Below, one piece after another: positions 37,624-53,525 of a stretch of 64,000 bases of DNA. The DNA comes from Magnetococcales bacterium. GTDB lineage: Bacteria > Pseudomonadota > Magnetococcia > Magnetococcales > UBA8363. How positions within the stretch are numbered: position 1 is the stretch's first letter; every line of letters begins with the position of its first letter. Both the position numbers and the translations under genes were made by a program. The stretch covers positions 6,323 through 70,322 of the forward strand of contig JADGCN010000002.1 of assembly GCA_015228975.1 (NCBI GenBank), given 5' to 3'. The notes under the pieces are model-generated. The model did no database searches, was not told where the DNA came from, and saw nothing but the letters and a program-made list of their open reading frames with translations.

Positions 37624-37944
37624 ATGTCCATACTCGCCCCTGCCCCTGATGACGGATTTCCGTTGCCAACGCCGCACAGGTGGACACGGGGGAAATGCCC
37701 ACCACTGGTGCATGTCCCATTGGGTGATCATCACATGATTTTCAATCCCATGTCGGGCCATACCCATTGGATCAACGAATTGGTCGTCGACATCCTTGAA
37801 ATATTGGCCCAGCACCCCATGGATGGTCGGGAGTTGATGACAGAGATGCAATTGGACCCTGCAGAGGATAGCAACTTGGCGGAAATGGAACGCATCCTTA
37901 ATGAACTGGATCGCTTGGGTTTGATCTTTCCGGTTGCATCGTGA
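37624..37944 (+). CDS. PqqD-family (RiPP recognition element-like) protein, HPr-rel-A type
   Basis: 106 aa. HHMIFNPMSGHTHWINELVVDILEIL...ILNELDRLGLI follows the PqqD/RRE pattern of beta strands followed by LNE..a.I...L and a terminal L..L...GLI. Confidence 0.75.
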   Translation: MSILAPAPDDGFPLPTPHRWTRGKCPPLVHVPLGDHHMIFNPMSGHTHWINELVVDILEILAQHPMDGRELMTEMQLDPAEDSNLAEMERILNELDRLGLIFPVAS

Positions 37945-38861
37945 ACATCGGCCAACTGTCATCCCGAGAGCTGTGCAACCAACTGCGATCGACCGGGTTG
38001 CGCTGGATCCTCGGTCCCTTTATCGTCCATTTGCGCTCCCGGGTACCGGATTTTTTTCAGCATTTGCAGATGTTTTATCATGAAAATGAGATATTGGAAC
38101 CGCCGTGGGACGATATCGCTGATTTTCACGCATCGTTGCACCCTTCCTTTGGACTGCGGCGCTATTGGCGACCCAAAGTCAGTTTCCGTTTGGATGGCAA
38201 CTCCTTTTTCACCCCTTTTCCTTTGAGCCACGCCCCTCCCATGTTTGAGTGGGGGATGAATATGGCCGTCGCTTCCCGAAGCAATCACTATCTATTATTA
38301 CATGCGGCTGTTTTGGAAAAAGGGGGGTGCGCCCTGGTTTTACCGGGAACGCCGGGGTCCGGGAAAAGTACCTTGAGCGCAGCATTATCCCTGCGTGGGT
38401 TTCGTCTACTTTCGGATGAATTTGGATTGTATTGTCCGCAAAAAAAAGTGTTCATGGCCAATGCCCGACCTGTTGGGTTGAAAAATGAATCCATTGACGT
38501 GATTCGTGCTTTCGATCCCCGGGCGGTACTGAGTGAGGAATATCCCCACACCCGAAAAGGAACGGTCAGTTTTTTGCGGGTTCCGGTCGGGAGCGTGCAG
38601 CAGATCGATTTTGGCGTGGTGCCGCGCTGGATAGTCTTTCCCACGTTTGAACAGCAAAGCGCCACCTATTTGGAGAAAATTCCGGCAGGGGAAGGTTTTT
38701 TGCGTTTGGCTGCCAACGCTTTCAATTATGAAACCCTGGGACAAAGCGGATTTGGCGGCATTGCTGAGATGGTACGTGACTCACAGATGATGCAACTGCG
38801 TTTTGGTCGCCTGGATGAAGCGGTGGCCGAGTTGCAAAATTTGACTTCGGTAACACCATGA
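37941..38861 (+). CDS. HPr kinase-related P-loop kinase (HprK-related kinase A type)
   Basis: The GTG start overlaps the upstream stop (GTGA). LLLHAAVLEKGGCALVLPGTPGSGKSTLSAALSLRGFRLLSDEF..GLKNESIDVIR has an HprK-like Walker A and matches remembered family TIGR04352. Confidence 0.78.
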   Translation: MNIGQLSSRELCNQLRSTGLRWILGPFIVHLRSRVPDFFQHLQMFYHENEILEPPWDDIADFHASLHPSFGLRRYWRPKVSFRLDGNSFFTPFPLSHAPPMFEWGMNMAVASRSNHYLLLHAAVLEKGGCALVLPGTPGSGKSTLSAALSLRGFRLLSDEFGLYCPQKKVFMANARPVGLKNESIDVIRAFDPRAVLSEEYPHTRKGTVSFLRVPVGSVQQIDFGVVPRWIVFPTFEQQSATYLEKIPAGEGFLRLAANAFNYETLGQSGFGGIAEMVRDSQMMQLRFGRLDEAVAELQNLTSVTP

Positions 38862-40558
38862 ATCCTGTGAATGGGATTGTTGCCCGGGTCAGGGCTCGAC
38901 TTCCTTGGAGTCCAAGTCGATTCTCCCCAGTGGTCACCGGCGTGATGATTGGGATTCTGGGTTGGTTCGTGCGATCTTTTCCCAATTATTGCCCCGTGAG
39001 GCATACCCTGAACCGGTTGCTCATGGGTACCAATCGGTATGCCGATGCCTTGACCAGTCTACAGCAAACCGTGGCAAACGGTTGTGTCACGGCTCAGGTT
39101 CATGCCCATTTGGCGGTGGTATACAGGCATTCCCAGCGACTGATGGCGGCTGAAAAATCGATGCGCTCCGCCTTGGAACGGGAACCTGGCAATGCGAACT
39201 GGTGGACGGAACTGGGTGTTATCCTATCGCTGCGGCAACATCGCAATCTGGCTTTGCAGGCGTTTGTCAGGGCTATTGCGTTACAGCCTGATTGTGTTGA
39301 GGCGTTGTTTCATTTGGCCAGACTCCATCTGGAGGTCAGTTTTTTTAATGCAGCGTTGGCCGAAGAGTATAGCCGTCGTGCCCTGCAGGTTGATCCCAAT
39401 CACCTCGGCTCTCTTTCTTGCTGTGCTAACGCCCTTGGAATGTTGGGAAAGTTGCAGGAAGCAGCCGTTCTTCATGAAAAAATTCTGGCGTTATCCCCTA
39501 ACAATGCTTACGCCCTGGAAAACTTGCTGGCCATGAATTGCCTTCCCCTGGGACACAAGGGTGAGGAACTACAGTCCACAATGACAAGCATGTTTCCTGT
39601 AGATCAGGCCAAAAGTCTCTTTGCCATGGCTAAGATCCACATGAAGAAAAAAGATATTGATCAAGCTTTCGCCAGTTACCAGCAGGGCAATCGCATCATG
39701 CGCCAAAGCTTTTTTTACGCCATTGATCAGGACGCCATGAATGCACAACGTGTCCAGGCGGTATTTGATCAGCGTTTCTTTTCAGACCGTGCCGGTTGGG
39801 GTGATCCTGCGGACAAGCCGATTTTTATTGTGGGGATGCCACGTTCAGGAACCACCCTGGTGGAACAGATTCTCGCAACGCACCCGTTATGCCATGGTGG
39901 TGGGGAACGATTTGAAGTCTACGAACTTGCCAATACCATGGGAACCTTGTCTCGAACCCATCTGGCTTATCCCGAGGCGACACGGGAATTGACGCGGGAA
40001 GAGGTACGAATACTTGGGCACAGTTGCGTGCAATCCTTGACCCTGTTGAATCCTTCAGCCATCCGGATTACTGATAAGTTACCCCATAATTTTCACTATG
40101 TTGGCCTGATTCATCTCCTCATGCCCAATGCACGTATCATTCATTGCCGGCGTCATCCCCTGGATACCTGCCTGAGTTGCTACCAACAATTATTTGCTGG
40201 CCATATACCTTACGCCTATGATCTGGAGGAATTGGGGCGATACTACCGCATCTATCATCACCTGATGCGGCATTGGCAACAAGCCTTGCCGGGACGCATG
40301 TTGGACATCCACTATGAACAGGTTGTCGATGATCTGGAGATGATGGTCGGTCGCATTCTTGATTATTGTGGTTTGCCCTGGCATGATGATTGTCTGAATT
40401 TTCATCAAGTCGAGCGGCAGGTGGATACGGCTAGTTTTATTGAAGTGCGGCAACCTTTGTACCGAACTTCAAGAGGTCGATGGAAGGTTTTTGCAGAACA
40501 TTTGCAACCATTGCGGCACGCCCTGGGGGATGTGCTTGAAGATGCGGAAGGGTATTGA
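38858..40558 (+). CDS. TPR-repeat protein fused to a sulfotransferase domain
   Basis: The ATG overlaps the kinase stop (ATGA). TPR-like helices occupy about aa 60-230. PAPS 5'-phosphosulfate loop GMPRSGTTLVEQIL and 3'-phosphate motif IIHCRRHPLDTCLSCY. Confidence 0.82.
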   Translation: MNPVNGIVARVRARLPWSPSRFSPVVTGVMIGILGWFVRSFPNYCPVRHTLNRLLMGTNRYADALTSLQQTVANGCVTAQVHAHLAVVYRHSQRLMAAEKSMRSALEREPGNANWWTELGVILSLRQHRNLALQAFVRAIALQPDCVEALFHLARLHLEVSFFNAALAEEYSRRALQVDPNHLGSLSCCANALGMLGKLQEAAVLHEKILALSPNNAYALENLLAMNCLPLGHKGEELQSTMTSMFPVDQAKSLFAMAKIHMKKKDIDQAFASYQQGNRIMRQSFFYAIDQDAMNAQRVQAVFDQRFFSDRAGWGDPADKPIFIVGMPRSGTTLVEQILATHPLCHGGGERFEVYELANTMGTLSRTHLAYPEATRELTREEVRILGHSCVQSLTLLNPSAIRITDKLPHNFHYVGLIHLLMPNARIIHCRRHPLDTCLSCYQQLFAGHIPYAYDLEELGRYYRIYHHLMRHWQQALPGRMLDIHYEQVVDDLEMMVGRILDYCGLPWHDDCLNFHQVERQVDTASFIEVRQPLYRTSRGRWKVFAEHLQPLRHALGDVLEDAEGY

Positions 40559-43857: not shown

Positions 43858-44307
43858 ATGGGCATCAAAATAATCAGCGACAACCGGAAGGCGCGCTTCA
43901 ACTATGAAATCCTCGAAAAATTGGAGGTCGGGATCGTTTTGACCGGCACCGAGGTGAAATCATTGCGCGCTGGCAAACTGAATATGGGCGAATCTTATGC
44001 TACGGTCATGCGCGAGGAATTGTTTTGGCTGCGTGCCAATATTCCCACCTATAGCCACGGTAACCAGTTCAATCACGATCCCCTGCGCATTCGCAAACTT
44101 TTGGTACATAAGAAAGAATTAAACCGTTTTATCGGCATCACCCAGGAGAAGGGCCTGACCCTCGTCCCCTTGAAGGTCTATTGGAAGGATGGCAAGGTCA
44201 AGTTGGAACTCGGGGTGGGGCGGGGTAAAAAATTGTTCGATAAGCGTAAAACCATTCGTGATCGCGACTGGAACCGCGATAAGGCACGCGTCCTTAAAGG
44301 GGGATAG
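43858..44307 (+). CDS. smpB: SsrA-binding protein
   Basis: IISDNRKARFNYEILEKLEVGIVLTGTEVKSLR and KRKTIRDRDW. The ORF-track start at 43801 is an extension. Confidence 0.95.
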   Translation: MGIKIISDNRKARFNYEILEKLEVGIVLTGTEVKSLRAGKLNMGESYATVMREELFWLRANIPTYSHGNQFNHDPLRIRKLLVHKKELNRFIGITQEKGLTLVPLKVYWKDGKVKLELGVGRGKKLFDKRKTIRDRDWNRDKARVLKGG

Positions 44308-44336
44308 ACTCTGGGATACGGTTGGAAAGGTCGCGT

Positions 44337-45101
44337 TTATGCATCGACCGTGAAATGGACCCGTTCTCCCGTTTGGGCGTTGAACCGGTGTTGCGCGCTC
44401 CCTTGATTGACGATGATTTCGATGGTTCCAAAACCTCCTGCAACCAATGCCGCTTCTCCCAGGGGTACCGAGGCAAAGGTGTTGACCAATGTGCCACACG
44501 CTTGTCCGTGAATCGTTCCCCGCAGTGTCTTTCCTGCCACCACGGATTTTGGCAGGGCGGTAATCAGGTTGCCGTATCGGTCACTCAACATGATGGTTGC
44601 GTCAAATCCACCCGCGACGACCGACCACCCCGGGTCGTTGCACCGGACCGGGTCATGCACCGGCGTTCCAAGATTTTCCAAGGTTTCTCCGTTGTGGAGC
44701 CTGGCGGCTACTGGGGCGAACAGGTCACGTCCATGAAAGGTAGGTGCTGCATGGGCATTCCTTGGCAGGGATACCGCTTGCCAATCGGCATTCTGGAAAA
44801 TGGGTGTTAAAAGTCCATTATCTGGGCCTACATAAAAGCTTATGCCCGAGCTGATGGCCAAACCCCGTCGCGAGCTTCCCACCCCGGGATCAACAACACA
44901 GAGCCATATGGATGGCGCTGGCATGATTGGCAGGCACCGCTCAAGCAACCAGGCACCGCTGGCAATGGAAAACGGTGGCAGGTCATGGTACAGGTCGATG
45001 ATTCTGGCTTCAGGGGCATAACGATGTAACACCCCTTTGACTTGCCCAACATAGGGGTCCGAGGTTCCGAAATCGGTCAACAGGACAAAGGGGATATTCA
45101 A
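44337..45101 (-). CDS. SAM hydroxide adenosyltransferase family (DUF62, chlorinase/fluorinase-like) protein
   Basis: 254 aa. The LLTDFGTSDPYVGQVKGVL N-terminus is typical of DUF62. The TTG start overlaps the stop of the upstream gene (TTGA). Confidence 0.82.
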   Translation of the reverse strand: MNIPFVLLTDFGTSDPYVGQVKGVLHRYAPEARIIDLYHDLPPFSIASGAWLLERCLPIMPAPSIWLCVVDPGVGSSRRGLAISSGISFYVGPDNGLLTPIFQNADWQAVSLPRNAHAAPTFHGRDLFAPVAARLHNGETLENLGTPVHDPVRCNDPGWSVVAGGFDATIMLSDRYGNLITALPKSVVAGKTLRGTIHGQACGTLVNTFASVPLGEAALVAGGFGTIEIIVNQGSAQHRFNAQTGERVHFTVDA

Positions 45102-46066
45102 AGCGGGGGGGTGGTCGGGTTATTTTGGACCAGGGGATCGGTCTTAAGGCTGTCTTGCAGGGCAATAAACCCGGCTTTGCGTATAATTTCCTGACCTTGC
45201 GATCCCTGTACCCAATCGATAAAAGGTTGTGCCAGGGAGACACGCGAATCCAGAACCAGGAAAAACAAAGGTCGCGCCAAAGGATAAAGACCCTTGTGGG
45301 TAAAGTCGGCAGTTGGGGGGACGCAGGCGGTTTCCTGGGCATCATCGCCGGCAACACAGACGGTTTTGACGTCGTTGGTGACGGTTGCCATACTGGTGAA
45401 AGCGATGGCGCATGGGGAAAGCGCAACCTTTTCCATCAACTTTTCTGGCTGGCGGATGGTGATCAGGTTGGCGTGAAAATGATTATGCTCCTTTAAAACC
45501 GTTTCACGGAAATAGAAATAGTCACCCGAATTGTTTTTCCGCGATATCCTTTGGATGGTGTTGTTATCGCAACCGGGTACCTCCACGCCAAGATCGGACC
45601 AGCGGGAATAACCGCCAGAGTTACCGAAGATGCGTGTCAACTGGCTCATGGTCAAGCCATTGAGGGGGTTGCTTTTGTGTACGACGATGGACAAGGCATC
45701 CATACCGATGATGTGTGTTTTAGGAAGTTTCCCGGAACGTTGAGATATCAGGCGAATTTCTCTTTCTTTCAGGTTGCGGGTGGTAACGGCGATATCAACA
45801 TGGCCGTTGATGAGGGCGGCAATACCATTGCCCGATCCCCCACCGTCCACTTCAAAAAAGACCCCGGGATTATTGGCATGATAGATCTTGGTCCAGGCCA
45901 GGACCACATCGACCATGGCATTGGAACCTTTGATGTGAATGAGATTCACGGCTTCCGAGGAACCTTGCGCCGGGTAGGGGCCGAGGAGAAGGGCTGCCGT
46001 CAGGTTCAGGAATACGAAGAGAATTGTGCGGAGTGTCGGGTGCCTTGTGATGTGTTGTGTTCCCAT
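45098..46066 (-). CDS. PstS-like periplasmic substrate-binding protein (orphan, no pstCAB adjacent)
   Basis: 322 aa. Signal peptide, then IKGSNAMVDVV..VDGGGSGNGIAALINGHVDIA..R (PBP_like_2 pattern). The start lies 2 nt after the upstream stop. Confidence 0.8.
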   Translation of the reverse strand: MGTQHITRHPTLRTILFVFLNLTAALLLGPYPAQGSSEAVNLIHIKGSNAMVDVVLAWTKIYHANNPGVFFEVDGGGSGNGIAALINGHVDIAVTTRNLKEREIRLISQRSGKLPKTHIIGMDALSIVVHKSNPLNGLTMSQLTRIFGNSGGYSRWSDLGVEVPGCDNNTIQRISRKNNSGDYFYFRETVLKEHNHFHANLITIRQPEKLMEKVALSPCAIAFTSMATVTNDVKTVCVAGDDAQETACVPPTADFTHKGLYPLARPLFFLVLDSRVSLAQPFIDWVQGSQGQEIIRKAGFIALQDSLKTDPLVQNNPTTPPL

Positions 46067-46068
46067 TG

Positions 46069-48291
46069 TCAGGCGACCGCCAATTCCAGGCTATTGGTGT
46101 CCAGGGTACAGTGGATATGCAGTGCGGCATCCTGGAGCAATGGTTTGTCGAAGGATTGGCTGGCGATGAAAAATTGCTGGATCGTATCGCTGATGCCAGC
46201 CAAGGCCCGGTACGACTCAAGGAAACGGTCGCGGTCGTAATGGGCAAACGGTTCATCGAGCATCATGAACTGTGCATGCGCTTGGGTGCGGGCGGTTATG
46301 GCCTGGGTCAAGGCGAAACGCAACGCCAGCATTAATTGACGCCGCAGACCGCGTGAGGTCTCCAGCATATCGACATAATCATTCTTGCTGGGGGAGAAGG
46401 CGGACAGATTCAATTTGTCATCGACGCGCAAATGTTGATAGCGGCCATGGGTGAATAAAGGTGCCGATTTGGCAATCTGTCTTTTAAGTTCATGGCTGAA
46501 GGCGAGGGCGATCTCATGAATGGTTCCGTGAATCAGCCGCCGTCCCAGGGTGCGGACATCGACGCCATGGGAGGTTTGGCTGTAACTCGCCGTGAGTTCT
46601 TGGTGACGCGCCTGCAGGCTTTGATGACGCTGATGGCGTTGTTGTTCGTGACGGATTTCCTGATCCAGAATGGCCAGATTGTCGGTGACGGCACTCAGTT
46701 GATCGCGGGCCTGTTGCAGGGCGTCATCCTGTCTTTTGAACATGCCCTCCAGCACCGAATGCAAACGATCAGCATCTTCTTTGAACTGGGCAATCAAATG
46801 GAGCAGCGCCTGTTCGTCGCCCATATTGCGACCGTGGGATTGCATCCAGAGCTGCAAAGTTTCCTGCCATTCGACCTTGTCGCCCAGAGAATTCAGTCGG
46901 GCGATCTGTTGGCACAGGGTGAGCTTGGCGCTCTCTTCCAAAGCGGCGACAATTTTTTGTTCCGATCCGGCACGTAATTGCAGGTTGTAACGCGCCTGCT
47001 TGTTATGGGAACGGACGGCCAGGCTGTTGATGAATTGACCGAGGCCAAAAAAGGAAATCATAAGAAAAAACAAACCCGTTCCCATGGCGGCGTGCAGGTG
47101 GATTGTCTCCATGTGCGGCAGTAGCTTGGCCAGCGATTGGGCTATGGTACTGATATGGGAATTGTGGGAAAAAAAGGAGAGGGCGAATCCGCCAAGACCC
47201 ATGGGGAGACCCAGGGGAAGAAAAACCAAAAATTTTACAATTCCCCGGCGGCTGGTCAGGGATGCTCGGGTGTCCTCTTCCGTCAAGGCTTTCTGCTGAC
47301 CGGCCAAAGTTTCACCATCGGTGCCCGAAAGCCAGTGGGAACGAGACAGTCTGTCCTGGTCGGCCCTGTTGACGATGGCGTTGAAGGCCTGGAGATTTTC
47401 GATGGTTTGTTGCGCTTTGCTGCGAATCCTGGCGACCATTGCGGCGGCTTCGCCCAGGTCCAGTGTGGTAAGCGACGAAAGGGAGGATTGCAGGCTTTTT
47501 AAATTGTGATGCCAAATGGGCAAAGTGGCTTGCCGGCCTTGTTCGATTGCGTTGCTCAGATGACCGGTTGCCACCTGAAAACCGGATCGCAAGACCTCTA
47601 TCTGTCGGGTTTGGTTGCTGATGGTCGTTTCGAGACTCTTCTGCCGTTCCGTGTTCACAGCAAACTTTTGTTGCAGTTCCGGCAATAGTTGGGGTTGCAG
47701 ATTGAGATCGGTCAACTCCTGGGTGACACCGGTGAGTTCGGCATTGAGGCGACTTTGTTGATCCCGTCCCGATCTGATTTCCGCCTCCAAATGTGCCGAA
47801 AGGTTTTCAAGGTCATCAACACCGGCAACCATGCGGACGATGGCCTCCGGGTTTTCCCCCTCCGGTGACCCCTGGGACAGATACGCTGTTTCGAGAAAAT
47901 GAGAGAATTCCATACCGGCGGCTTGGATCATCGCTTCGTCGACTTCCGTTGCCCCGGCGAGGGGAACCTCCTGGTCTTGAACGATCAAACGAGCCAGGTT
48001 GTGCGGTTCTTGGCGGTTGAATTGGCGATGGATCGTGACGTTTTGTCCGCTGGAACTGATGAAATCAAGGGAAATGGAACCTTGCGCAGTGCCCCAATGG
48101 AGGATTTTTTCGATCTGGTTGTGGTCCAGGTTGGCCGTGCGACCAAAAAGGGCCAGGCAAATGGTTTCGAAAATGGCCGACTTGCCTGATTCGTTATCGC
48201 CACTGATGACGATGTTCCCCCGGGTGGGGAAAGAAAGATCCAGGTGCGCGAAGCGCAGAATGTTTTCGGCCTTCAGGTGGCGGATAATCAT
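46069..48291 (-). CDS. Rad50/SbcC/SMC-like AAA ATPase with a central transmembrane hairpin (YhaN-like architecture)
   Basis: 740 aa. N-terminal Walker A ISGDNESGKSAIFETICLALFG, long Q/E/L-rich coiled-coil arms, two hydrophobic helices at aa 351-374 and 401-426 (nt about 47014-47241), and a C-terminal Walker B QFMMLDEPFAHYD. Confidence 0.8.
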   Translation of the reverse strand: MIIRHLKAENILRFAHLDLSFPTRGNIVISGDNESGKSAIFETICLALFGRTANLDHNQIEKILHWGTAQGSISLDFISSSGQNVTIHRQFNRQEPHNLARLIVQDQEVPLAGATEVDEAMIQAAGMEFSHFLETAYLSQGSPEGENPEAIVRMVAGVDDLENLSAHLEAEIRSGRDQQSRLNAELTGVTQELTDLNLQPQLLPELQQKFAVNTERQKSLETTISNQTRQIEVLRSGFQVATGHLSNAIEQGRQATLPIWHHNLKSLQSSLSSLTTLDLGEAAAMVARIRSKAQQTIENLQAFNAIVNRADQDRLSRSHWLSGTDGETLAGQQKALTEEDTRASLTSRRGIVKFLVFLPLGLPMGLGGFALSFFSHNSHISTIAQSLAKLLPHMETIHLHAAMGTGLFFLMISFFGLGQFINSLAVRSHNKQARYNLQLRAGSEQKIVAALEESAKLTLCQQIARLNSLGDKVEWQETLQLWMQSHGRNMGDEQALLHLIAQFKEDADRLHSVLEGMFKRQDDALQQARDQLSAVTDNLAILDQEIRHEQQRHQRHQSLQARHQELTASYSQTSHGVDVRTLGRRLIHGTIHEIALAFSHELKRQIAKSAPLFTHGRYQHLRVDDKLNLSAFSPSKNDYVDMLETSRGLRRQLMLALRFALTQAITARTQAHAQFMMLDEPFAHYDRDRFLESYRALAGISDTIQQFFIASQSFDKPLLQDAALHIHCTLDTNSLELAVA

Positions 48292-48482
48292 GACTTTTGA
48301 CCTCCTGATCCCATGCGCGACAGGACAAAGGCGCGGGCATCTTCAAACAAGACTGGATCGAAGGATGCATCGGTGGTTTCCAGGCGACGCCGTTCGCGAT
48401 TACAATAGGCTTCAAAGGCGGTAGCTGGCGTCAGGAGTCGGAAGTTCCGATCTGAGACTTGAGAAGGTTTGTTTGCAGACAT
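48288..48482 (-). CDS. Small hypothetical protein translationally coupled to the SMC-like ATPase
   Basis: 64-aa ORF whose stop overlaps the ATPase start (ATGA). No family recognised and the Shine-Dalgarno is weak. Confidence 0.45.
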   Translation of the reverse strand: MSANKPSQVSDRNFRLLTPATAFEAYCNRERRRLETTDASFDPVLFEDARAFVLSRMGSGGQKS

Positions 48483-48633
48483 GAGGGGACCCCAACAGGT
48501 TGTTGCTTACGCGACCGATCCGGGACTTTAATCAACAGTGTACTCAAGGTTGCTCCGGGTCAACAGGTATAACGTGGCATCGATGGAAAAAAGTGTCCTT
48601 AAGACCCTGTCGTGGCATCAGTCGGGTGGCGTG

Positions 48634-49749
48634 TCAGGGTGAAGAGGCGGCATGTCCGACCAGGTGTACCGGGGCATAGCCGCTTCCCGGCTCGCGCAAC
48701 GTCGTGATCTGGCCCTGATAAATACGGGCCGCGACTCCCAAGATGTGATGGCGGTAGACGAAAAATCGAAAATCACTTTTCACCGGTTGCTCCCGGTTCG
48801 GGCAGGTGAGCGTGCTGGGTGGTGCCAGACGTTGCACCAATGTTTGTTCCGGGTTGAGGGCGTTAAAGCGGGTTTTGGAAATATTGCGCCCCAGGAGAAC
48901 ACCCTTGCCGCCATGAGAACTGACAGGTTTGAACACCCAGTGTCGCCGTTCTCGCCAGACCTCCGCGGCATCCAGGTTGTCCAAGGTTCGGGTTTGCGGG
49001 GTGATGGTGAGCAACATCCGACGTTGTTCCGGGGTGAGGTCCAAGGTTGCCAGGATATTGGCATCACTCCACAGGATCATGCGTCGTTTGTCGGCCAGGA
49101 GGCCGTAGGTTCGGGGGTTGGGGGTGAGGCAGACCTTGCGCTGTAGAAAGGCGGAGCGCACACCGGCCATGGCGGGGGATTCCAGATAAAAATCGCAATG
49201 GCGATTGTAGATCAAATCAACCACTCTGCCCTGGTAGAGCAAAGAATCATTCCGCCACTCCAAGGCTTCGGGGGTGACAATGGCGGTTTGGATGCCATTC
49301 CGGGTGAACTGATCGGCAAACGCTTGCATTTCTGGATAGAGGAATTGCTCCTCTGGTTTGTCGTCCACGATCACCACATGTTGGGGCTTGTTTTTCTTCC
49401 CGTGGGAAAAACGTGATATTTCCTGTTGGAAGCAATCCATGACGGCATTGCGACGACCATGGCAGGGGAAGGTTGTGCCCTGGGCGCGCCAGGCGAGCAA
49501 TGCGCCACCAGCGTTGGTGTTGACTTCGATAAGGCGTGGCCCCTCGGGTGTGAGGTGGAAATCATAGCCCATCATGACCGATTCATGTCCCGGGTCATGG
49601 CGTGCCGTCTCGGGAACCAGGGGTGCGACCCGTTGCTGATAGTCGGGGGAGAGGTGCAGCGTGTGCAAGAGGCGGATGAAGCGGATCATGGTTTTGGCGT
49701 GCGCCATGGGAAGGGTAACCGGGCAATCGGCGGAATTGAGTTCAGTCAT
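48634..49749 (-). CDS. ATP-grasp-fold protein (glutathionylspermidine-synthase / circularly permuted ATP-grasp-like), tentative
   Basis: 371 aa. MGYDFHLTPEGPRLIEVNTNAGG resembles the D-F-x-L-x-x-x-G-P-x-L-(I/L)-E-x-N motif of pre-ATP-grasp families. The start overlaps the upstream MFS stop by 4 nt. Confidence 0.55.
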   Translation of the reverse strand: MTELNSADCPVTLPMAHAKTMIRFIRLLHTLHLSPDYQQRVAPLVPETARHDPGHESVMMGYDFHLTPEGPRLIEVNTNAGGALLAWRAQGTTFPCHGRRNAVMDCFQQEISRFSHGKKNKPQHVVIVDDKPEEQFLYPEMQAFADQFTRNGIQTAIVTPEALEWRNDSLLYQGRVVDLIYNRHCDFYLESPAMAGVRSAFLQRKVCLTPNPRTYGLLADKRRMILWSDANILATLDLTPEQRRMLLTITPQTRTLDNLDAAEVWRERRHWVFKPVSSHGGKGVLLGRNISKTRFNALNPEQTLVQRLAPPSTLTCPNREQPVKSDFRFFVYRHHILGVAARIYQGQITTLREPGSGYAPVHLVGHAASSP

Positions 49750-50915
49750 GATGGCATCTTTGAGGTATCAAGGTTGAAAAGGCGGGCGGAGTAGAGGGCG
49801 GCCAGGGAGCCCAACAAGGCCATGACAGCCATGAGGGCGAAAAGGGATTGGGCGCCGATGCGGTTGTAGAGTCCGCCGGCCAACAACAATCCCCCCCCCA
49901 AACCGGCTCCGTAGGAAATGGCGGAGAACCAGCTTTGGGCGGTGGCGCGATGGTTGGGGTGGGAGGTGTCATACACCCGGCGGATGGCGGCGATATGGAA
50001 GGCACCAAAGGTGAATGCGTGCAACACTTGACCGAGGATCAGCCAGGGCCAAGTCAGGGTCAGAGAATAGATGGTCCAACGTGTGGCGGCCAGGAGCAGG
50101 GTGGTGATGAGGATGGCGGAAACGCTGAAGCGTTTCAGGATGGCGTTGGATTGGGCGAGGATAGCAATTTCGGCCAAAACCCCGAGTGCCCACAGGGCAC
50201 CGATGGCGGTCTTGGAAAATCCATTGGCTTCCAAATGGATGGACATGAATCCATAGTAGGCGCCATGGGAGAGCAGCATGAAGAGTCCCATCAGGTTGAA
50301 CCAGAGGATTTTGCGTGGACCGAACAGGCGGTAGGGTTGGCAAGGGGGCCCTCCGGGTTTGGGTTCTGCCTCGGGGAGCTGGCTGGCGATGAGCGTTTGC
50401 AGCAATTGGAACAGGGAAATGGCCAAGGGTACCAGCATCAGGCCCCAATGATCGGCCAGGGGGCCGAGCCCCAGGGCGAGGAGGATGAAGCCAGCCGAAC
50501 CCCAGAGGCGAATGCGACCGTAATCCCAATGATGACGGGTAACGGTTTCCATGGCGGTGGTTTCAACGAGGGCGATGCAACCGACGAGGAAAAAGTGCAA
50601 GGAGGCAACCGCGATGGTGATGACGGCCAGATCGTTGCTCAGGTAGAAAAGCCCGGTGGAAGCTAAAGCGCCTGCGGAGGTTGTGAGTATGATGGTTTTG
50701 CGGGAATCACTGCGATCGGCCAAACGTCCCCAGATGGGGGGGCCCAATAGTTTGATGGCCATGGAGAGGGAGGTCACCATGCCGATTGCGGCGGCTCCAT
50801 GGCCGATGTGGGCCATGTACAGCGGCCAATAGGGCATCCATATCCCAAGGGTGGCGAAGTAGAAGGTGTAAAACCCCGCCAGGGACAGATAGGCGTTCAA
50901 ATGGCGTCCTCCCAC
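49746..50915 (-). CDS. MFS transporter (12-TM, LacY/nucleoside-H+ symporter-like)
   Basis: 389-aa polytopic hydrophobic protein with GRLADR between TM2 and TM3. Confidence 0.8.
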   Translation of the reverse strand: MGGRHLNAYLSLAGFYTFYFATLGIWMPYWPLYMAHIGHGAAAIGMVTSLSMAIKLLGPPIWGRLADRSDSRKTIILTTSAGALASTGLFYLSNDLAVITIAVASLHFFLVGCIALVETTAMETVTRHHWDYGRIRLWGSAGFILLALGLGPLADHWGLMLVPLAISLFQLLQTLIASQLPEAEPKPGGPPCQPYRLFGPRKILWFNLMGLFMLLSHGAYYGFMSIHLEANGFSKTAIGALWALGVLAEIAILAQSNAILKRFSVSAILITTLLLAATRWTIYSLTLTWPWLILGQVLHAFTFGAFHIAAIRRVYDTSHPNHRATAQSWFSAISYGAGLGGGLLLAGGLYNRIGAQSLFALMAVMALLGSLAALYSARLFNLDTSKMPS

Positions 50916-50983
50916 TGGCCAAATAACGAGTTCCGGGAAATCTTTCGTGGGGGTCCGGAAGGTTCATCCCATCCGCCTACCCA

Positions 50984-51391
50984 TTAAAAGCGAAAGAGAA
51001 CCCATTGCGGGACGACCAAGCGGGGTTGATGGCCATTGAATTTGGAGTCGAACAGGCCATCACCGTTGGTGTCGATGAGGAGATAGGGGGGGCCATGGAC
51101 CGGGATGACCTGGAGTTCAAACAGGGAACCGTTGATAAAAAATTCAAAGACCTGGTTTCCTTGTTCGTCTTCATACTTGCGCACCACGGTTTCCGGGGCA
51201 TTGGGCTCGTCCGAGGCTTTTTCCTTGAACTGCGACACCATGTGACCTTTTTCCGGTACCGGGAATCCTTTGGGATTGACCAGCGGTTGTTCGGCGGATG
51301 CGGACAGGAAAGGGCTAAGCAACAGTAGCAGTACGAGAGGCAATAGACGCCAGGGGCGAAAGGTTCCTCGGGTGGTCATGGGATGGGACAT
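50984..51391 (-). CDS. Secreted hypothetical protein
   Basis: 135 aa. Signal peptide WRLLPLVLLLLLSPFLSASA. Contains a DTNGDGLFD loop that looks like a Ca-binding loop. Confidence 0.6.
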   Translation of the reverse strand: MSHPMTTRGTFRPWRLLPLVLLLLLSPFLSASAEQPLVNPKGFPVPEKGHMVSQFKEKASDEPNAPETVVRKYEDEQGNQVFEFFINGSLFELQVIPVHGPPYLLIDTNGDGLFDSKFNGHQPRLVVPQWVLFRF

Positions 51392-51496
51392 GGTGTTCTC
51401 GGGCTCCTCGCGAATCGTTTGCTTTCAAATTACCTTGCCATTGTGATGTTTTTCAACGCCCCATGGCAAGGCATGGCCAAGCGTTCACGTCATTTT

Positions 51497-52096
51497 TCAC
51501 ATCGGCTTTTGCGGAGCGTCCGGGGTTTGATGCCCAGTGGCCGATGCCCGTCTGCTCTTTATCCATCGGATCAAGCCAATGGCCAGGGCCAGACCTGCCA
51601 GACCGCCCAGCACAGCCATTTCATATTCCTGGGCTTGACCCAAAAATTTTTCGACCGCCTTGCCAAAGAAATAGCCCGCCACGCTGAACGAAGCAGCCCA
51701 GATAAAGGCGGCAATAAAATTTAAAACCATGAACCGCATGAAAGAAAGCTTGCTCAAACCAAAAGCGAAGGAGCTGACATTGCGCACGCCATAGAAGAAG
51801 CGGTAGGACAGGATGAACCAAGCATCCCACCTGTGGATCAGTTCAAGAACACGGGTCACGCTTTTGGTCCATTTACGTTCTTTTTGCCAAAACCAATCCC
51901 TTCCCAGGCGTCGTCCCAGCCAAAAATAGAGCTGGTCACCCAAGAAAGTACCAATGGCTGCAACCGCCATCGTCATCCAGATGTCCAGATATCCCCTGGA
52001 AGCCAGATAGGCCGCTACCAACAGGACGGTCTCCCCTTCGATGAACGTCCAGCCGAAAAGGAGCAGATAGCCATACTGACGGAGTAATTCTTCCAT
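51497..52096 (-). CDS. DedA family membrane protein
   Basis: 199 aa. YGYLLLFGWTFIEGETVLL..GDQLYFWLGRR is the DedA/SNARE-associated pattern. Confidence 0.88.
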   Translation of the reverse strand: MEELLRQYGYLLLFGWTFIEGETVLLVAAYLASRGYLDIWMTMAVAAIGTFLGDQLYFWLGRRLGRDWFWQKERKWTKSVTRVLELIHRWDAWFILSYRFFYGVRNVSSFAFGLSKLSFMRFMVLNFIAAFIWAASFSVAGYFFGKAVEKFLGQAQEYEMAVLGGLAGLALAIGLIRWIKSRRASATGHQTPDAPQKPM

Positions 52097-52118
52097 GCTA
52101 CCATCCTCTCATTGAGAG

Positions 52119-53525
52119 TCAATTAGGAGTGCATTCGGGCAACGGAAACGGAATTGGGTCCTCTTTGCCGATTCTGGAACCCGGGGTACCCTTGAACGAG
52201 CCATCGATACGCACCAACCGGGCTGCAAAAAAACCATCCATGCCGGAAAGACCGGGCCAGGTTTGCAGGAAACCATCGCTTTGGATCCAAGACGGGTGCA
52301 AACCATCAGCCGTTGTTGAAACGGGATCCAAACGCCACTGGGGGTGGGACGCCAGAAAAGCTTTGACAACGTCTTGATTTTCTTCAGGCTCCATGGAACA
52401 CGTGGCGTAGAGTACGACTCCCCCCCCATCCATCCTTGCAGCAACACCCGTCAGGATGGCCAATTGTTCCCGGTGCATGCGCAGTGGATCGTCCGGCTTG
52501 CGCAACCATTTGATTTCCGGGTGGTGACGAATGATCCCGGTTCCGCTACAGGGGGCATCCACCAGGGCGCGATCAAATTTTTCATCAGCCAAAAGCTGCC
52601 CGTCCGCCACATCTCCCGCAATAACCCTGACCCCGGATACCCGCAACCGTCGCAAATTTTCCCGCAAACGTTGCAAGCGGGCTTGGCTTTTATCCACTGC
52701 CGTCAATTGTACCTGACCCATGCCCAGTTGCGCCAGATGGGCTGTTTTCCCTCCCGGGGCGGCACAGGCGTCAAGGATGCGATCACCCGGTTCCAGGTGT
52801 AGTAATGTCGGGATCCATTGCGCCCCCTGGTCGGCAACCGCGAAGCGTCCCTCGGTGAATCCCGGCAGGTTTTCCACCGGCCCTCCCGCATCCCAGGTGA
52901 GCGCCCCCGGGGTTTCTGGACAAAGAGTTGCCCCGGCCTTGAGTAAGCTTTGCATGGTATCTTGTTGTGTCGAAGGGTCGCCGTGCAGGCGCAAGGTCAG
53001 TGGCGCGGGTTGGTTCCCAGCCTCTAAAATGTGTCGGCAGGTTTCCTCCCCCCAGTGCTGCCACCAACGTCTGACAAGCCATTCGGGGTAGGAGTGTGTC
53101 ATGGCCAATCGGGCGACAGGATCCTCCAGGTCGGTGAGCGCCGCCTCCTTGTTCAAAAGTACCGCTTTGCGAAGTATGGCGTTGCAAAACGGCACCATGG
53201 CCTTTTCTTTTGATCCCTTGACCAAGGCGACCGCTTCAAAGACGGCCGCCCTGGCCGGTACTCGGAGAAACAGGGCCTGGTACAGGGCTGTCAACAAGAC
53301 AGCCCTGACAAAGTGGCGTTTGGGGGGCAGGGGGCGGGGCATGCATTGATTGAGAAGAGTCGTGAGCAATGCGTAATGGCGCAACGATCCCATGGCAATT
53401 TCCTGGGCCAGGGCCCGGTCGCGAAGCGGCAGCCCTTCCAGCCAGTCATGGCCACGTAGTTGCAGGCCATCTTTCAGGACATGCATAACCGCCAGTACTG
53501 CCCGAGCGCGTGGACCCGAAGCCAT
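52119..53525 (-). CDS. rsmB: 16S rRNA (cytosine967-C5)-methyltransferase
   Basis: NusB-like N-terminal domain, then DACAAPGGKT, DAPCSGTG and ATCS motifs. The start at the Met at 53525 avoids overlap with engB. The ORF-track start is 53702. Confidence 0.88.
   Translation of the reverse strand: MASGPRARAVLAVMHVLKDGLQLRGHDWLEGLPLRDRALAQEIAMGSLRHYALLTTLLNQCMPRPLPPKRHFVRAVLLTALYQALFLRVPARAAVFEAVALVKGSKEKAMVPFCNAILRKAVLLNKEAALTDLEDPVARLAMTHSYPEWLVRRWWQHWGEETCRHILEAGNQPAPLTLRLHGDPSTQQDTMQSLLKAGATLCPETPGALTWDAGGPVENLPGFTEGRFAVADQGAQWIPTLLHLEPGDRILDACAAPGGKTAHLAQLGMGQVQLTAVDKSQARLQRLRENLRRLRVSGVRVIAGDVADGQLLADEKFDRALVDAPCSGTGIIRHHPEIKWLRKPDDPLRMHREQLAILTGVAARMDGGGVVLYATCSMEPEENQDVVKAFLASHPQWRLDPVSTTADGLHPSWIQSDGFLQTWPGLSGMDGFFAARLVRIDGSFKGTPGSRIGKEDPIPFPLPECTPN

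What the first reader, a model, noticed from the sequence alone, without database searches (positions are those of the whole stretch)
44337..48482. Four translationally coupled genes: small ORF, membrane SMC-like ATPase, orphan PstS-like binding protein, DUF62 SAM-cleaving enzyme
The junctions on the minus strand are an ATGA overlap (48288-48291), a 2-nt spacer (46067-46068) and a TTGA overlap (45098-45101). This argues for co-translation and fixed stoichiometry. The combination is functionally odd: an ABC/SMC-type ATPase, a periplasmic phosphate-type binding protein with no permease genes, and a SAM hydroxide adenosyltransferase-family enzyme. I know of no described system with this composition. 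It could be a sensing or transport module or a stress/defence-type module. That suggestion is speculation.
Basis: partly seen in the sequence, partly recalled or inferred. Interest (0 to 1): 0.55.

Follow-up and report, generated by a model that had tools for sequence, protein, structure and literature searches.

The report
Mosaic operon around membrane-anchored Rad50-like ATPase
The four tightly packed genes are real, but only the small protein and the membrane-anchored Rad50/SMC-like ATPase form a widely conserved and apparently undescribed pair. The phosphate-type binding protein is a lineage-specific neighbour, and the SAM-cleaving enzyme is an incidental housekeeping gene.

Summary
All four minus-strand ORFs and their junctions (ATGA, 2-nt spacer, TTGA) are exactly as described. 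The organism is a Magnetococcales bacterium.

Comparison with 130 related loci shows that the cluster is a mosaic, not a four-part system.

1. The 64-aa ORF and the 740-aa ATPase are a true conserved pair. The family has at least 442 clusters (at 50% identity) in Magnetococcales and many Gammaproteobacteria. Each member is a Rad50/SMC-type ABC head with long coiled-coil arms and a two-helix membrane hairpin where Rad50 has its zinc hook. The small gene overlaps the ATPase start by 4 nt in 49 of 59 loci. No curated family, defence model or paper found describes this pair.

2. The PstS-like protein follows the ATPase only in Magnetococcales. One genome keeps it without the ATPase, and no locus outside Magnetococcales has it.

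3. The DUF62 gene, now known as an (R,S)-SAM hydrolase for metabolite repair, is adjacent in one species only. It is cleanly missing in a strain whose ATPase is 95% identical.

A conserved promoter-like element lies upstream of the small ORF. The function of the pair is unknown. My best guess is a membrane-tethered ATP-driven clamp with an adaptor subunit.

The parts
48538..48567 (-). Conserved non-coding element CCTGTTGACCCGGAGCAACCTTGAGTACAC, 56-85 nt upstream of the small ORF. It contains TTGACC, a 15-nt spacer and TACACT, so it looks like a promoter or operator.
   Evidence: The alignment of the unk371-small ORF intergenic regions of 6 genomes shows an invariant block. The exact degenerate pattern occurs once in each of 12 loci of the window's clade. 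It occurs once in the window, with 0 expected by chance at up to 3 mismatches. The sigma-70 scan did not call it because the spacer is 15 nt.
48288..48482 (-). Small ORF of 64 aa, the universal partner of the ATPase. It is predicted to be a helical hairpin (helices 19-37 and 43-61) with the motif F..(Y/F)C..E..RR...(F/L)(D/N)...(F/Y)..A..L.L.(R/K)L.
   Evidence: It is conserved at protein level in Magnetococcales, Gammaproteobacteria and metagenome loci. Its stop overlaps the ATPase start by 4 nt in 49 of 59 loci. AlphaFold2 gives pLDDT above 90 in the core. There is no hit in Pfam, NCBIfam or PADLOC and no Foldseek match.
46069..48291 (-). Rad50/SMC-type ABC ATPase of 740 aa, with coiled-coil arms and a transmembrane hairpin at the apex.
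   Evidence: Pfam AAA_23 and SMC_N. Weak NCBIfam Rad50 hits. PDB Rad50 heads at E about 1e-9. The AlphaFold2 arms 158-350 and 395-614 are helical with pLDDT about 90. The top Foldseek hits are Rad50, Smc5/6, MukB and LmuB. The family has 442 cluster representatives at E<=1e-30.
48178..48201 (-). Walker A motif G31-D-N-E-S-G-K-S38.
   Evidence: G31, G36 and K37 are invariant in 47 diverse members. Read directly from the sequence.
47173..47241 (-). Transmembrane helix 1 (about aa 351-373), preceded by the basic stretch SRRGIVK.
   Evidence: Hydropathy scan. The segment is present in all 149 representatives examined, and 126 of them show both segments at a strict threshold. The flanking Arg/Lys residues fit an N-in, C-in topology, read from the sequences.
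47032..47097 (-). Transmembrane helix 2 (about aa 399-420), followed by the basic stretch VRSHNKQAR. The loop of about 25 aa between the two helices is predicted to be periplasmic.
   Evidence: helix 395-454 runs on into the C-terminal arm.
46336..46356 (-). Degenerate ABC signature motif S646-R-G648-L-R-R-Q652.
   Evidence: S646, G648 and Q652 are invariant in 47 members.
46249..46260 (-). Walker B motif L678-D-E680-P. It is followed by D686/R689 (D-loop region), Q706, and Q712 where SMC and Rad50 have the H-loop His.
   Evidence: Coordinates were checked.
45098..46066 (-). Periplasmic PstS-family binding protein of 322 aa with a Sec signal peptide and four conserved Cys. The ligand motifs are altered to GSNAM and RKNNSGD.
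   Evidence: PBP_like_2 at 113.6 bits. TIGR02136 at 161 bits, below the 206.6 cut-off. The nearest PDB entries are P. aeruginosa PstS 4pqj/4omb. Ortholog alignment. An ortholog is present without the ATPase in L050.
44337..45101 (-). DUF62 / SAM hydroxide adenosyltransferase-family protein of 254 aa with a TTG start. It is probably an (R,S)-SAM hydrolase and not part of the conserved module.
   Evidence: SAM_HAT_N at 164 bits and SAM_HAT_C at 62 bits. NF058624 at 177.5 bits, below the 350 cut-off. The motifs DPGVG..RR and FHGRD align with PH0463 and TTHA0338. The gene is absent in L008 between the PBP gene and smpB.
48634..50915 (-). Upstream context: the MFS_1_like transporter (49746-50915) overlaps by 4 nt a 371-aa circularly permuted ATP-grasp-like protein (48634-49749). 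This pair is conserved across Magnetococcales with or without the ATPase pair.

Best explanation
The locus is a mosaic of three evolutionary layers that are probably transcribed together from a conserved promoter-like element upstream of the small ORF.

Layer 1 is the only real 'system'. It is a two-gene module made of a roughly 65-aa helical-hairpin protein and a 600-790-aa Rad50/SMC-class ABC ATPase. The two long antiparallel coiled-coil arms of the ATPase end in a two-helix membrane hairpin instead of a zinc hook or hinge.

Inferred mechanism: the protein sits in the inner membrane with its apex embedded and its arms and ATPase head in the cytoplasm. Two copies engage head to head around ATP, as all Rad50/SMC proteins do. 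The translationally coupled small protein binds the head or the base of the arms as an adaptor or regulator. It would be analogous to the helical Rad50-binding domain of Mre11 or to a kleisin end. The likeliest job is an ATP-gated, membrane-tethered clamp or sensor for a cytoplasmic polymer, most plausibly DNA. A membrane or envelope role is the main alternative.

Layer 2 is the PstS-like periplasmic binding protein. It is a Magnetococcales-specific gene at the end of a conserved DUF2782-MFS-ATP-grasp block. It may have been recruited as an accessory of the ATPase in that order, but neither protein needs the other.

Layer 3 is the DUF62 gene, an unrelated housekeeping (R,S)-SAM hydrolase that happens to abut the cluster in one species.

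What is shown: the gene anatomy, the motifs, the conservation patterns and the indel. What is inferred: the topology, the dimerisation, the role of the small protein and the substrate.
For: Pair conservation.
- The genome scan found the ATPase in 8 Magnetococcales and about 25 Gammaproteobacteria, including Chromatiaceae, Sedimenticola and Thiosymbion.
- The exhaustive HMMER search gave 442 representatives at E<=1e-30. The best 149 are all full length with the mid-protein hydrophobic hairpin.
- The small ORF is found upstream in nearly all loci, with a 4-nt overlap in 49 of 59.
- In many lineages the pair stands alone between unrelated or opposite-strand genes.

ATPase class.
- Walker A, Q-loop, signature Ser/Gly/Gln and Walker B D-E are invariant.
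- The nearest sequence relatives are Rad50 heads.
- The AlphaFold2 arms are confident, and Foldseek is led by Rad50, Smc5/6, MukB and LmuB.

Small protein: a confident helical hairpin.

The PBP is separable.
- It follows the ATPase in 10 of 10 Magnetococcales genomes that have downstream sequence.
- L050 has DUF2782-MFS-ATPgrasp-PBP with no ATPase pair.
- L051 and L131 have MFS-ATPgrasp only.
- tblastn finds no PBP homolog in any non-Magnetococcales locus.

DUF62 is incidental.
- It is found only in L045-47.
- In L008 the PBP stop is followed directly by smpB, and the junction lies at a TATCCC direct repeat.
- The family is characterised as a stereoselective (R,S)-SAM hydrolase for metabolite repair (bioRxiv 10.1101/2025.08.29.672840; PMC12120602).

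Own promoter: a conserved element sits upstream of the small ORF, and a gap of more than 100 nt after the ATP-grasp gene is seen in all Magnetococcales loci.
Against: - No experiment or transcript data exist for any member.
- The AlphaFold2 head domains have low confidence (pLDDT below 50, from a 10-sequence alignment). The Rad50-like head therefore rests on sequence motifs and weak profile hits, all far below curated cut-offs.
- The H-loop His is replaced by Gln in at least 90% of members, so the hydrolysis kinetics may be unusual.
- Nothing tested here shows DNA binding.
- Where a third gene is present it is envelope-related: the PBP, a Gly-zipper/YflT-like membrane protein in 13 loci, and a patatin-like protein in 1 locus. 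That fits a membrane role as well as a DNA role.
- Within Magnetococcales the ATPase is never seen without the PBP, so a real functional link in that order cannot be excluded.
- All Magnetococcales loci may share the arrangement by descent alone.
Confidence: 0.7

Rival explanations
1. In Magnetococcales there is a genuine three-component envelope-spanning system made of the small protein, the ATPase and the PBP. The periplasmic PstS-like protein docks on the short periplasmic loop of the membrane hairpin. One possibility is that ligand binding is signalled inward to the cytoplasmic ATPase heads. The other is that ATP-driven arm movements are transmitted outward, as in mechanotransmission ABC systems such as MacB, FtsEX and LolCDE.
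For: - The PBP immediately follows the ATPase in all 10 Magnetococcales genomes that carry the ATPase, across ATPase identities down to 30%. The genes outside the block differ between these genomes.
- The gaps are short, 2-36 nt in most.
- The genes share a conserved upstream element.
- The PBP has a signal peptide and four conserved Cys, so it is periplasmic.
- It is an orphan with no pstCAB nearby.
- Its ligand motifs are altered in the window clade, with GSNA and SGD in place of GSDT and SGT.
Against: - The PBP ortholog persists next to the ATP-grasp gene in a genome without the ATPase pair (L050).
- The ATPase pair works without any PBP in about 50 loci outside Magnetococcales.
- The periplasmic loop is not conserved across the family (consensus).
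- The altered ligand motifs do not track the presence of the ATPase. L004 and L027 have the ATPase and keep canonical-like motifs.
Confidence: 0.2
2. One reading: all four genes form one functional module for sensing, transport or stress/defence, with fixed stoichiometry and SAM cleavage as part of the mechanism.
For: The junctions are tight, including the TTGA overlap of the PBP stop with the DUF62 start and the lack of an obvious Shine-Dalgarno sequence before the TTG. The same arrangement is kept in three near-identical assemblies.
Against: - DUF62 is absent from the same position in a strain whose ATPase is 95% identical. There the rest of the locus and the downstream smpB are intact.
- It is absent from every other related locus.
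- DUF62 enzymes have an independent housekeeping role as (R,S)-SAM hydrolases (10.1101/2025.08.29.672840; PMC12120602).
Confidence: 0.03
3. The small protein and the ATPase form an anti-phage or anti-plasmid defence system of the SMC-like sensor type, like Lamassu, Septu or Gabija. The membrane-anchored ATPase would sense incoming DNA, and the variable third gene (Gly-zipper membrane protein, patatin-like lipase) would act as effector.
For: - PADLOC gives weak hits to mad3, LmuB, mad8, PtuA, DndD and GajA at E from 6e-12 to 1e-6.
- Foldseek hits LmuB and JetC.
- The third gene is variable and includes effector-like types: patatin-like in L061 and a membrane protein in 13 loci.
Against: - The hits are to the generic ABC head and far weaker than family membership would give.
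- No nuclease or other known partner (LmuA/C, PtuB, GajB) lies in any neighbourhood.
- Most loci have no third gene.
- The pair sits in a conserved chromosomal context within each lineage: after an RNase II-like gene in Chromatiales-type genomes and near trxA-rho in another group.
- No homolog was found in 72,556 plasmids, and only one weak partial hit in 50,697 phages.
Confidence: 0.07

Closest known systems
Rad50 / SbcC (the ATPase of the Mre11-Rad50 / SbcCD complex)
   Same: It is an ABC ATPase head split into N- and C-terminal halves by a long antiparallel coiled coil. Walker A, Q-loop, signature Ser/Gly and Walker B D-E are present. Rad50 gives the best sequence hits and the best structural hits. 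The partner gene is translationally coupled.
   Different: The apex is a two-helix membrane hairpin, not a CxxC zinc hook. The partner is a 64-aa helical hairpin, not an Mre11/SbcD nuclease. The H-loop His is Gln. Scores are far below the Rad50 cut-offs (58 bits against 1087). The signature is the degenerate SxGxxRQ.
SMC / MukB and SMC-like defence ATPases (Lamassu LmuB, Wadjet JetC)
   Same: The overall head-arm architecture matches, with breaks in the predicted arms. Foldseek and PADLOC give weak matches.
   Different: There is no hinge domain. There are no kleisin/KITE partners, no LmuA/LmuC and no JetABD. The protein is membrane-anchored, chromosomal and in stable synteny, and it is absent from plasmid and phage collections.
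PstS phosphate-binding protein (P. aeruginosa PstS, PDB 4omb/4pqj; TIGR02136)
   Same: It has the PBP_like_2 fold, a signal peptide, and the conserved GGGSG and R-x3-S-G motifs.
   Different: It scores below the family cut-off (161 against 206.6 bits). No pstCAB is linked. Two ligand-motif Thr positions are changed to Ala and Asp in the window's clade. Four extra Cys are conserved. Its fixed genomic partner is the MFS-ATP-grasp block or the ATPase pair, not a transporter.
DUF62 (R,S)-S-adenosyl-L-methionine hydrolase (StDUF62, PH0463, TTHA0338; NF058624)
   Same: Both SAM_HAT domains are present. The motifs DFG..PYVG, DPGVG..RR and FHGRD align with solved homologs.
   Different: It scores below the NCBIfam equivalog cut-off (177.5 against 350 bits). 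It uses a TTG start overlapping the upstream stop. It has no conserved link to its neighbours here.
Mechanotransmission ABC systems (MacB, FtsEX, LolCDE). This is a functional analogy recalled from memory, not tested.
   Same: A cytoplasmic ABC ATPase is coupled through membrane helices to a periplasmic partner. This would apply only to the three-gene rival model.
   Different: Those systems use separate permease subunits with large periplasmic domains and canonical transporter-type nucleotide-binding domains. Here the head is of the Rad50/SMC class, and the periplasmic loop is only about 25 residues and is not conserved.

Membership tests
Rad50/SbcC-SMC class of coiled-coil ABC ATPases | Walker A, Q-loop, ABC signature, and Walker B with catalytic Glu | tested here: met
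   G31xxxxGK37S, Q140, S646xG648xxxQ652 and D679-E680 are invariant or nearly so in 10 and in 47 members. The signature is degenerate: SRGLRRQ or SSGTQRQ instead of LSGGQ/E.
Rad50/SbcC-SMC class of coiled-coil ABC ATPases | H-loop histidine after Walker B | tested here: not met
   The corresponding position is Gln712 in at least 90% of 47 members. This assignment is by motif spacing (QxxxxxQ against QxxxxTH) and is an inference.
Rad50/SbcC-SMC class of coiled-coil ABC ATPases | A long antiparallel coiled coil inserted between the two head halves | tested here: met
   AlphaFold2 predicts helical arms at 158-350 and 395-614 with pLDDT about 90. The top Foldseek hits are Rad50, Smc5/6 and MukB.
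Rad50/SbcC-SMC class of coiled-coil ABC ATPases | An apical dimerisation module: a CxxC zinc hook (Rad50/SbcC) or a hinge domain (SMC/MukB) | tested here: not met
   The apex is two hydrophobic helices, aa 351-373 and 399-420, flanked by Arg/Lys. There is no CxxC or hinge. This is conserved in 149 representatives.
Rad50/SbcC-SMC class of coiled-coil ABC ATPases | A partner nuclease (Mre11/SbcD) or kleisin encoded alongside | tested here: not met
   No such gene lies in any of the neighbourhoods examined. The only constant partner is the 64-aa protein.
Rad50/SbcC-SMC class of coiled-coil ABC ATPases | Curated model scores | tested here: inconclusive
   AAA_23 scores 51.5, above its cut-off of 27. 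SMC_N scores 35.4, below 40. NCBIfam Rad50 scores 58 bits against cut-offs of 700-1087.
PstS phosphate-binding protein of the Pst transporter | PBP_like_2 domain and an export signal | tested here: met
   113.6 bits against a cut-off of 27. The N-terminal hydrophobic signal ends in AQG|SS (read).
PstS phosphate-binding protein of the Pst transporter | A score above the PstS family cut-off | tested here: not met
   TIGR02136 scores 161.1 against 206.6. TIGR00975 scores 37.9 against 205.
PstS phosphate-binding protein of the Pst transporter | Genetic linkage to pstC, pstA and pstB | tested here: not met
   tblastn with pstC/A/B from L003 finds nothing in the 64-kb window. Only L003 has pstCAB, about 4 kb away.
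PstS phosphate-binding protein of the Pst transporter | Conserved phosphate-ligand residues. The E. coli numbering T10, S38, D56, R135, S139 and T141 is from memory. | tested here: inconclusive
   R-x3-S-G and GGGSG are kept. The window clade has GSNA and SGD where P. aeruginosa PstS and the orthologs in L004, L027 and L050 have GSDT and SGT/SGS.
DUF62 (R,S)-SAM hydrolase | SAM_HAT N- and C-terminal domains with the conserved active-site motifs | tested here: met
   164.1 and 62.3 bits. DPGVGSSRR and TFHGRD align with PH0463 and TTHA0338.
DUF62 (R,S)-SAM hydrolase | NCBIfam equivalog cut-off | tested here: not met
   NF058624 scores 177.5 against 350. NF053629 scores 103.7 against 470.
DUF62 (R,S)-SAM hydrolase | Stereoselective hydrolysis of (R,S)-SAM to adenosine and methionine | not testable with these tools
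   This needs an enzyme assay. The activity has been shown for StDUF62 and for archaeal homologs (PMC12120602; 10.1101/2025.08.29.672840).
Known SMC-like/ABC defence systems (Lamassu, Septu, Gabija, Dnd/Pbe, mads) | A sensor ATPase that matches the system's model, plus the cognate effector gene(s) | tested here: not met
   The PADLOC hits are only weak, at E from 6e-12 to 7e-3. The other four proteins give no hit, and no LmuA/C, PtuB or GajB lies in the neighbourhoods.
Known SMC-like/ABC defence systems (Lamassu, Septu, Gabija, Dnd/Pbe, mads) | Patchy, mobile or island-associated distribution | tested here: not met
   The chromosomal context is conserved within each lineage. There is no plasmid hit, and one weak partial phage hit.

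The most novel reading that the evidence does not exclude
The small helical protein and the TM-hairpin Rad50/SMC-like ATPase define a previously undescribed, widespread class of membrane-anchored SMC-type machines in Proteobacteria. The family has at least 442 clusters at 50% identity. The membrane replaces the hook or hinge as the apical anchoring site, and ATP-driven head engagement acts on DNA, or on the envelope, at the inner membrane. In Magnetococcales the module has acquired a periplasmic PstS-derived partner with a remodelled ligand pocket. That would make an envelope-spanning sensor or actuator with no known counterpart.
Probability: 0.35. Interest if true: 0.7.

Novelty: new variant of a known kind. 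Interest (0 to 1): 0.42.

Why it matters
All well-studied coiled-coil ABC ATPases (Rad50, SMC, MukB, RecN, LmuB, JetC) are soluble machines. Their apex holds two arms together through a zinc hook or a hinge.

A large, conserved family in which that apex is a membrane hairpin, always paired with a tiny helical partner, would be a new architectural solution. It could link nucleoid or foreign-DNA handling, or a mechanical ATPase cycle, to the inner membrane.

The family occurs in culturable Sedimenticola species, so it can be tested genetically.

For the finding as written, the main value is corrective. It shows how tight gene junctions can bring together unrelated genes: a metabolite-repair enzyme, a lineage-specific binding protein and a conserved two-gene core. 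A single-genome reading therefore over-calls 'systems'.

Tried and rejected
- The sigma-70 promoter and terminator scan of 44000-52200 found no more sites than shuffled sequence and missed the conserved element because its spacer is 15 nt. It was not informative.
- Rfam at gathering thresholds over the whole window found nothing.
- PADLOC gave only weak ABC-head hits, so the defence reading was not adopted.
- A naive all-against-all clustering of six-frame ORFs in the GC-rich gammaproteobacterial loci was swamped by shadow ORFs. I replaced it with greedy longest-ORF maps and targeted BLAST.
- Foldseek with the small-protein model gave no match better than E=6.
- The k-mer-limited homolog search badly under-reported both the ATPase family (12 hits) and the small protein (4 hits). 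The true family size came only from the exhaustive HMMER search.
- Three literature searches for membrane-anchored SMC/Rad50-like ATPases found nothing relevant. The 2020 ABC-ATPase classification paper (Krishnan et al., NAR) is not held, so I could not check whether it mentions this clade.
- I considered that the upstream ATP-grasp-like gene belongs to the module. I rejected this because the gene is widespread (4548 hits) and stands alone in Desulfuromonas and Syntrophotalea.
- I considered sigma-54 and sigma-32 readings of the conserved element by eye. Neither fits.

Full report
**Observation.** The four minus-strand ORFs exist at the stated coordinates: 64 aa at 48288-48482, 740 aa at 46069-48291, 322 aa at 45098-46066, and 254 aa at 44337-45101 with a TTG start. 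Reading the reverse strand confirms the three junctions. They are gtcATGAtt (a 4-nt overlap, with AGGAGG 9 nt upstream of the ATPase ATG), gccTGAcaATGgga (a 2-nt spacer) and gctTTGAat (a 4-nt overlap). The family calls are also right. The 740-aa protein hits AAA_23 and SMC_N, with weak Rad50 matches. The 322-aa protein is a PBP_like_2/PstS-family protein. The 254-aa protein has both SAM_HAT domains. The closest relatives are Magnetococcales MAGs at 98% identity.

**Synteny test.** I gathered 130 related loci in three ways.
- Exact-protein look-ups.
- A scan of one genome per species.
- A metagenome scan seeded with a 47-member alignment.

Neighbour proteins were then searched by BLAST in all loci, and gene maps were drawn. 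Three layers separate cleanly.

**Layer 1: small ORF plus ATPase.** The ATPase family is much larger than a k-mer search suggested.
- An exhaustive HMMER search of 1.84 billion cluster representatives gave 442 at E<=1e-30. The best 149 are all full length, in two size classes of about 600-650 aa and 720-790 aa. Each has a mid-protein hydrophobic hairpin.
- Genomes that carry it are Magnetococcales and many Gammaproteobacteria, including Chromatiaceae, Sedimenticola and Candidatus Thiosymbion.
- In nearly every locus a 60-70-aa ORF lies immediately upstream. It shares the motif F..(Y/F)C..E..RR...FD...(F/Y)..A..L.L.(R/K)L. Its stop overlaps the ATPase ATG by exactly 4 nt in 49 of 59 loci and lies within -2 to +11 nt in 7 more.
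- In several lineages the pair is flanked by unrelated or opposite-strand genes, so it is a self-contained bicistron.

**ATPase motifs.**
- Invariant in 47 diverse members: Walker A G31/G36/K37, signature S646/G648/Q652, Walker B D679/E680, D686, R689 and Q706.
- Invariant in the 10-member alignment: Q-loop Q140.
- Gln712 replaces the H-loop His in at least 90% of members. C45 and C728 are nearly invariant.

**ATPase structure.**
- AlphaFold2 on a 10-sequence alignment gives confident helical arms at 158-350 and 395-614 (pLDDT about 90). The heads have low confidence.
- Foldseek ranks Rad50 (7zr1, E=5.6e-12) first, followed by Smc5/6, MukB and Lamassu LmuB.
- The two hydrophobic helices (about 351-373 and 399-420) are flanked by SRRGIVK and VRSHNKQAR on their cytoplasmic sides. 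This fits an N-in/C-in hairpin with a periplasmic loop of about 25 residues. The loop is not conserved across the family.

**Small protein.** It is predicted to be a helical hairpin with pLDDT above 90. It has no structural match and no match in Pfam, NCBIfam or PADLOC.

**Layer 2: the PstS-like protein.**
- It follows the ATPase in all ten Magnetococcales genomes that have downstream sequence, even where the ATPases share only 30% identity. The genes outside the DUF2782-MFS-ATPgrasp-small-ATPase-PBP block differ between these genomes: polA, or DedA-rsmB, upstream; and DUF62, Thiamine_BP, DedA or asnB downstream.
- One Magnetococcales genome has DUF2782-MFS-ATPgrasp followed directly by an orthologous PBP, with no small ORF or ATPase (L050).
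- Two others have only MFS-ATPgrasp (L051 and L131).
- No locus outside Magnetococcales has a PBP homolog anywhere within its flanks.
- Where those loci have a third gene, it is a roughly 170-aa Gly-zipper membrane protein with a weak YflT-like N-terminus (13 loci) or, once, a patatin-like protein.
- The PBP scores below the PstS family cut-off (161 against 206.6 bits) and has no pstCAB in the window.
- In the window's clade it has GSNAM and RKNNSGD where P. aeruginosa PstS and the orthologs in L004, L027 and L050 have GSDT and SGT/SGS.
- Four Cys are conserved in the Magnetococcales orthologs.

**Layer 3: DUF62.**
- It is adjacent only in three assemblies of the same species-level lineage, at 95% protein identity.
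- In L008 the ATPase is 95% identical and the PBP 97% identical. There the PBP stop (TAA) is followed 14 nt later by the end of the convergent smpB gene, and the DUF62 gene is missing. The junction sits at a TATCCC sequence that flanks DUF62 as a direct repeat in the window. This looks like a deletion between short repeats.
- DUF62 enzymes are now characterised as stereoselective (R,S)-SAM hydrolases that remove the inactive sulfonium epimer. Sources are bioRxiv 10.1101/2025.08.29.672840, and PMC12120602 with the Kornfuehrer et al. 2020 paper it cites.
- The window protein keeps the DPGVG..RR and FHGRD motifs of the solved homologs.
- It is therefore best read as a housekeeping gene that happens to abut the cluster.

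**Transcription unit.**
- A gap of more than 100 nt separates the ATP-grasp gene from the small ORF in all Magnetococcales loci.
- Within that gap a 30-nt element (window 48538-48567, minus strand) is invariant across genomes whose proteins are only about 55% identical.
- The degenerate pattern matches once in each of 12 loci and once in the window, with none expected by chance.
- It contains TTGACC, 15 nt and TACACT. Its distance to the start codon varies between genomes, which fits a promoter or operator better than a leader RNA. Rfam finds nothing.
- This supports small ORF-ATPase-PBP(-DUF62) as its own transcript, separate from MFS-ATPgrasp.

**Mechanism.**
- Shown: the motifs, the architecture and the conservation patterns.
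- Inferred: a dimeric, inner-membrane-anchored Rad50/SMC-like ATPase whose heads engage around ATP in the cytoplasm. The translationally coupled hairpin protein would act as an adaptor or regulator at the head or arm base, by analogy with the Rad50-binding helices of Mre11 or with kleisin ends.
- Coiled-coil ABC ATPases act almost exclusively on nucleic acids. I therefore favour a membrane-tethered DNA clamp or sensor, at about 0.3.
- The envelope-related third genes keep a membrane or envelope role open, at about 0.25.
- A defence role is unlikely, at about 0.07. There are no effector partners, the chromosomal context is stable, and the family is absent from 72,556 plasmids and essentially absent from 50,697 phages.
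- A Magnetococcales-specific functional link between the ATPase and the PBP remains possible, at about 0.2.

**Comparison and novelty.**
- The ATPase works like a Rad50/SMC head-arm machine. It fails three defining features of those families: the hook or hinge, the nuclease or kleisin partner, and the H-loop His. It also scores far below the curated cut-offs.
- I found no curated model (Pfam 2025, NCBIfam 20, PADLOC 2.0) and no paper in the searchable library that describes it. I could not read the 2020 classification of ABC ATPases.
- I rate it a new variant of a known kind.

**Verdict.** The four-gene 'system' as proposed is not supported. The two-gene core is the part worth following.

Noticed in passing
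window 48538-48567 (-); also L001 7659-7688, L008 5612-5641, L009 9667-9696, L011 9715-9744, L045 9725-9754: A 30-nt non-coding element (CCTGTTKAC-N6-CAANCTTGNGTACAC) is invariant upstream of the small ORF in genomes whose proteins are only about 55% identical. It is promoter-like (TTGACC-15 nt-TACACT), and its distance to the start codon varies.
   Followed up: partly
window 44320-44345 and 45090-45101 (-); L008 9075-9100: The DUF62 gene is flanked by a short direct repeat, TATCCC. A strain whose ATPase is 95% identical (L008) lacks exactly the segment between the repeats, so PBP and smpB become neighbours there. This looks like a recent repeat-mediated deletion.
   Followed up: yes
window 45098-46066 (-), residues about 47-51 and 184-190: The PstS-like protein of the window's clade carries GSNAM and RKNNSGD. 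More distant Magnetococcales orthologs and P. aeruginosa PstS have GSDT and SGT. Two ligand-motif Thr positions are changed together, to Ala and Asp, which suggests a ligand or protonation state other than ordinary phosphate. Four extra conserved Cys are also present.
   Followed up: partly
window 48634-50915 (-): An MFS_1_like transporter and a 371-aa circularly permuted ATP-grasp-like protein overlap by 4 nt. They are a constant pair in Magnetococcales, usually after DUF2782 and often divergent from polA. The ATP-grasp protein has more than 4,500 homologs and stands alone in Desulfuromonas and Syntrophotalea. No Pfam model reaches threshold, and there is no PDB relative by sequence.
   Followed up: partly
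L005 9920-10423; L060, L071, L076, L016, L017, L022, L023, L026, L058, L067: In 13 gammaproteobacterial or metagenome loci the ATPase is followed, often with overlap or a gap under 25 nt, by a roughly 170-aa protein. It has a weak YflT-like N-terminal domain and a glycine-zipper membrane segment. It is an alternative 'third gene' to the Magnetococcales PBP.
   Followed up: partly
L061 10302-12359 (685-aa ORF 58 nt after the ATPase): One long-type ATPase locus has a patatin-like protein (GGGFRASLFHIG motif, recognised by eye) directly downstream.
   Followed up: no
L005 5770-7596; L055, L063, L069, L083 and most of L014-L040: In Chromatiales-type genomes an RNase II-family gene (RNB with HTH_RNase_II domains) lies directly upstream of the small ORF on the same strand. 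This could be lineage synteny or a functional link.
   Followed up: no
ATPase residues C45, Q712 and C728 (window about 48157-48159, 46156-46158, 46108-46110); small protein C27 (window about 48402-48404): Two Cys in the ATPase head and the single Cys of the small protein are nearly invariant across the family. The H-loop His is replaced by Gln. A shared metal or redox site is conceivable but untested.
   Followed up: no
L003 15038-18223: In one Magnetococcales genome pstC-pstA-pstB lie about 4 kb downstream of the PstS-like gene with no pstS of their own next to them. This is the only hint that the 'orphan' PBP might serve a Pst transporter.
   Followed up: no
window 37941-40558 (+); L007 7754-10350; L045 17734-20351: A ScmC-like gene and a TPR-sulfotransferase gene overlap by 4 nt. 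They recur near this block in several Magnetococcales genomes.
   Followed up: no
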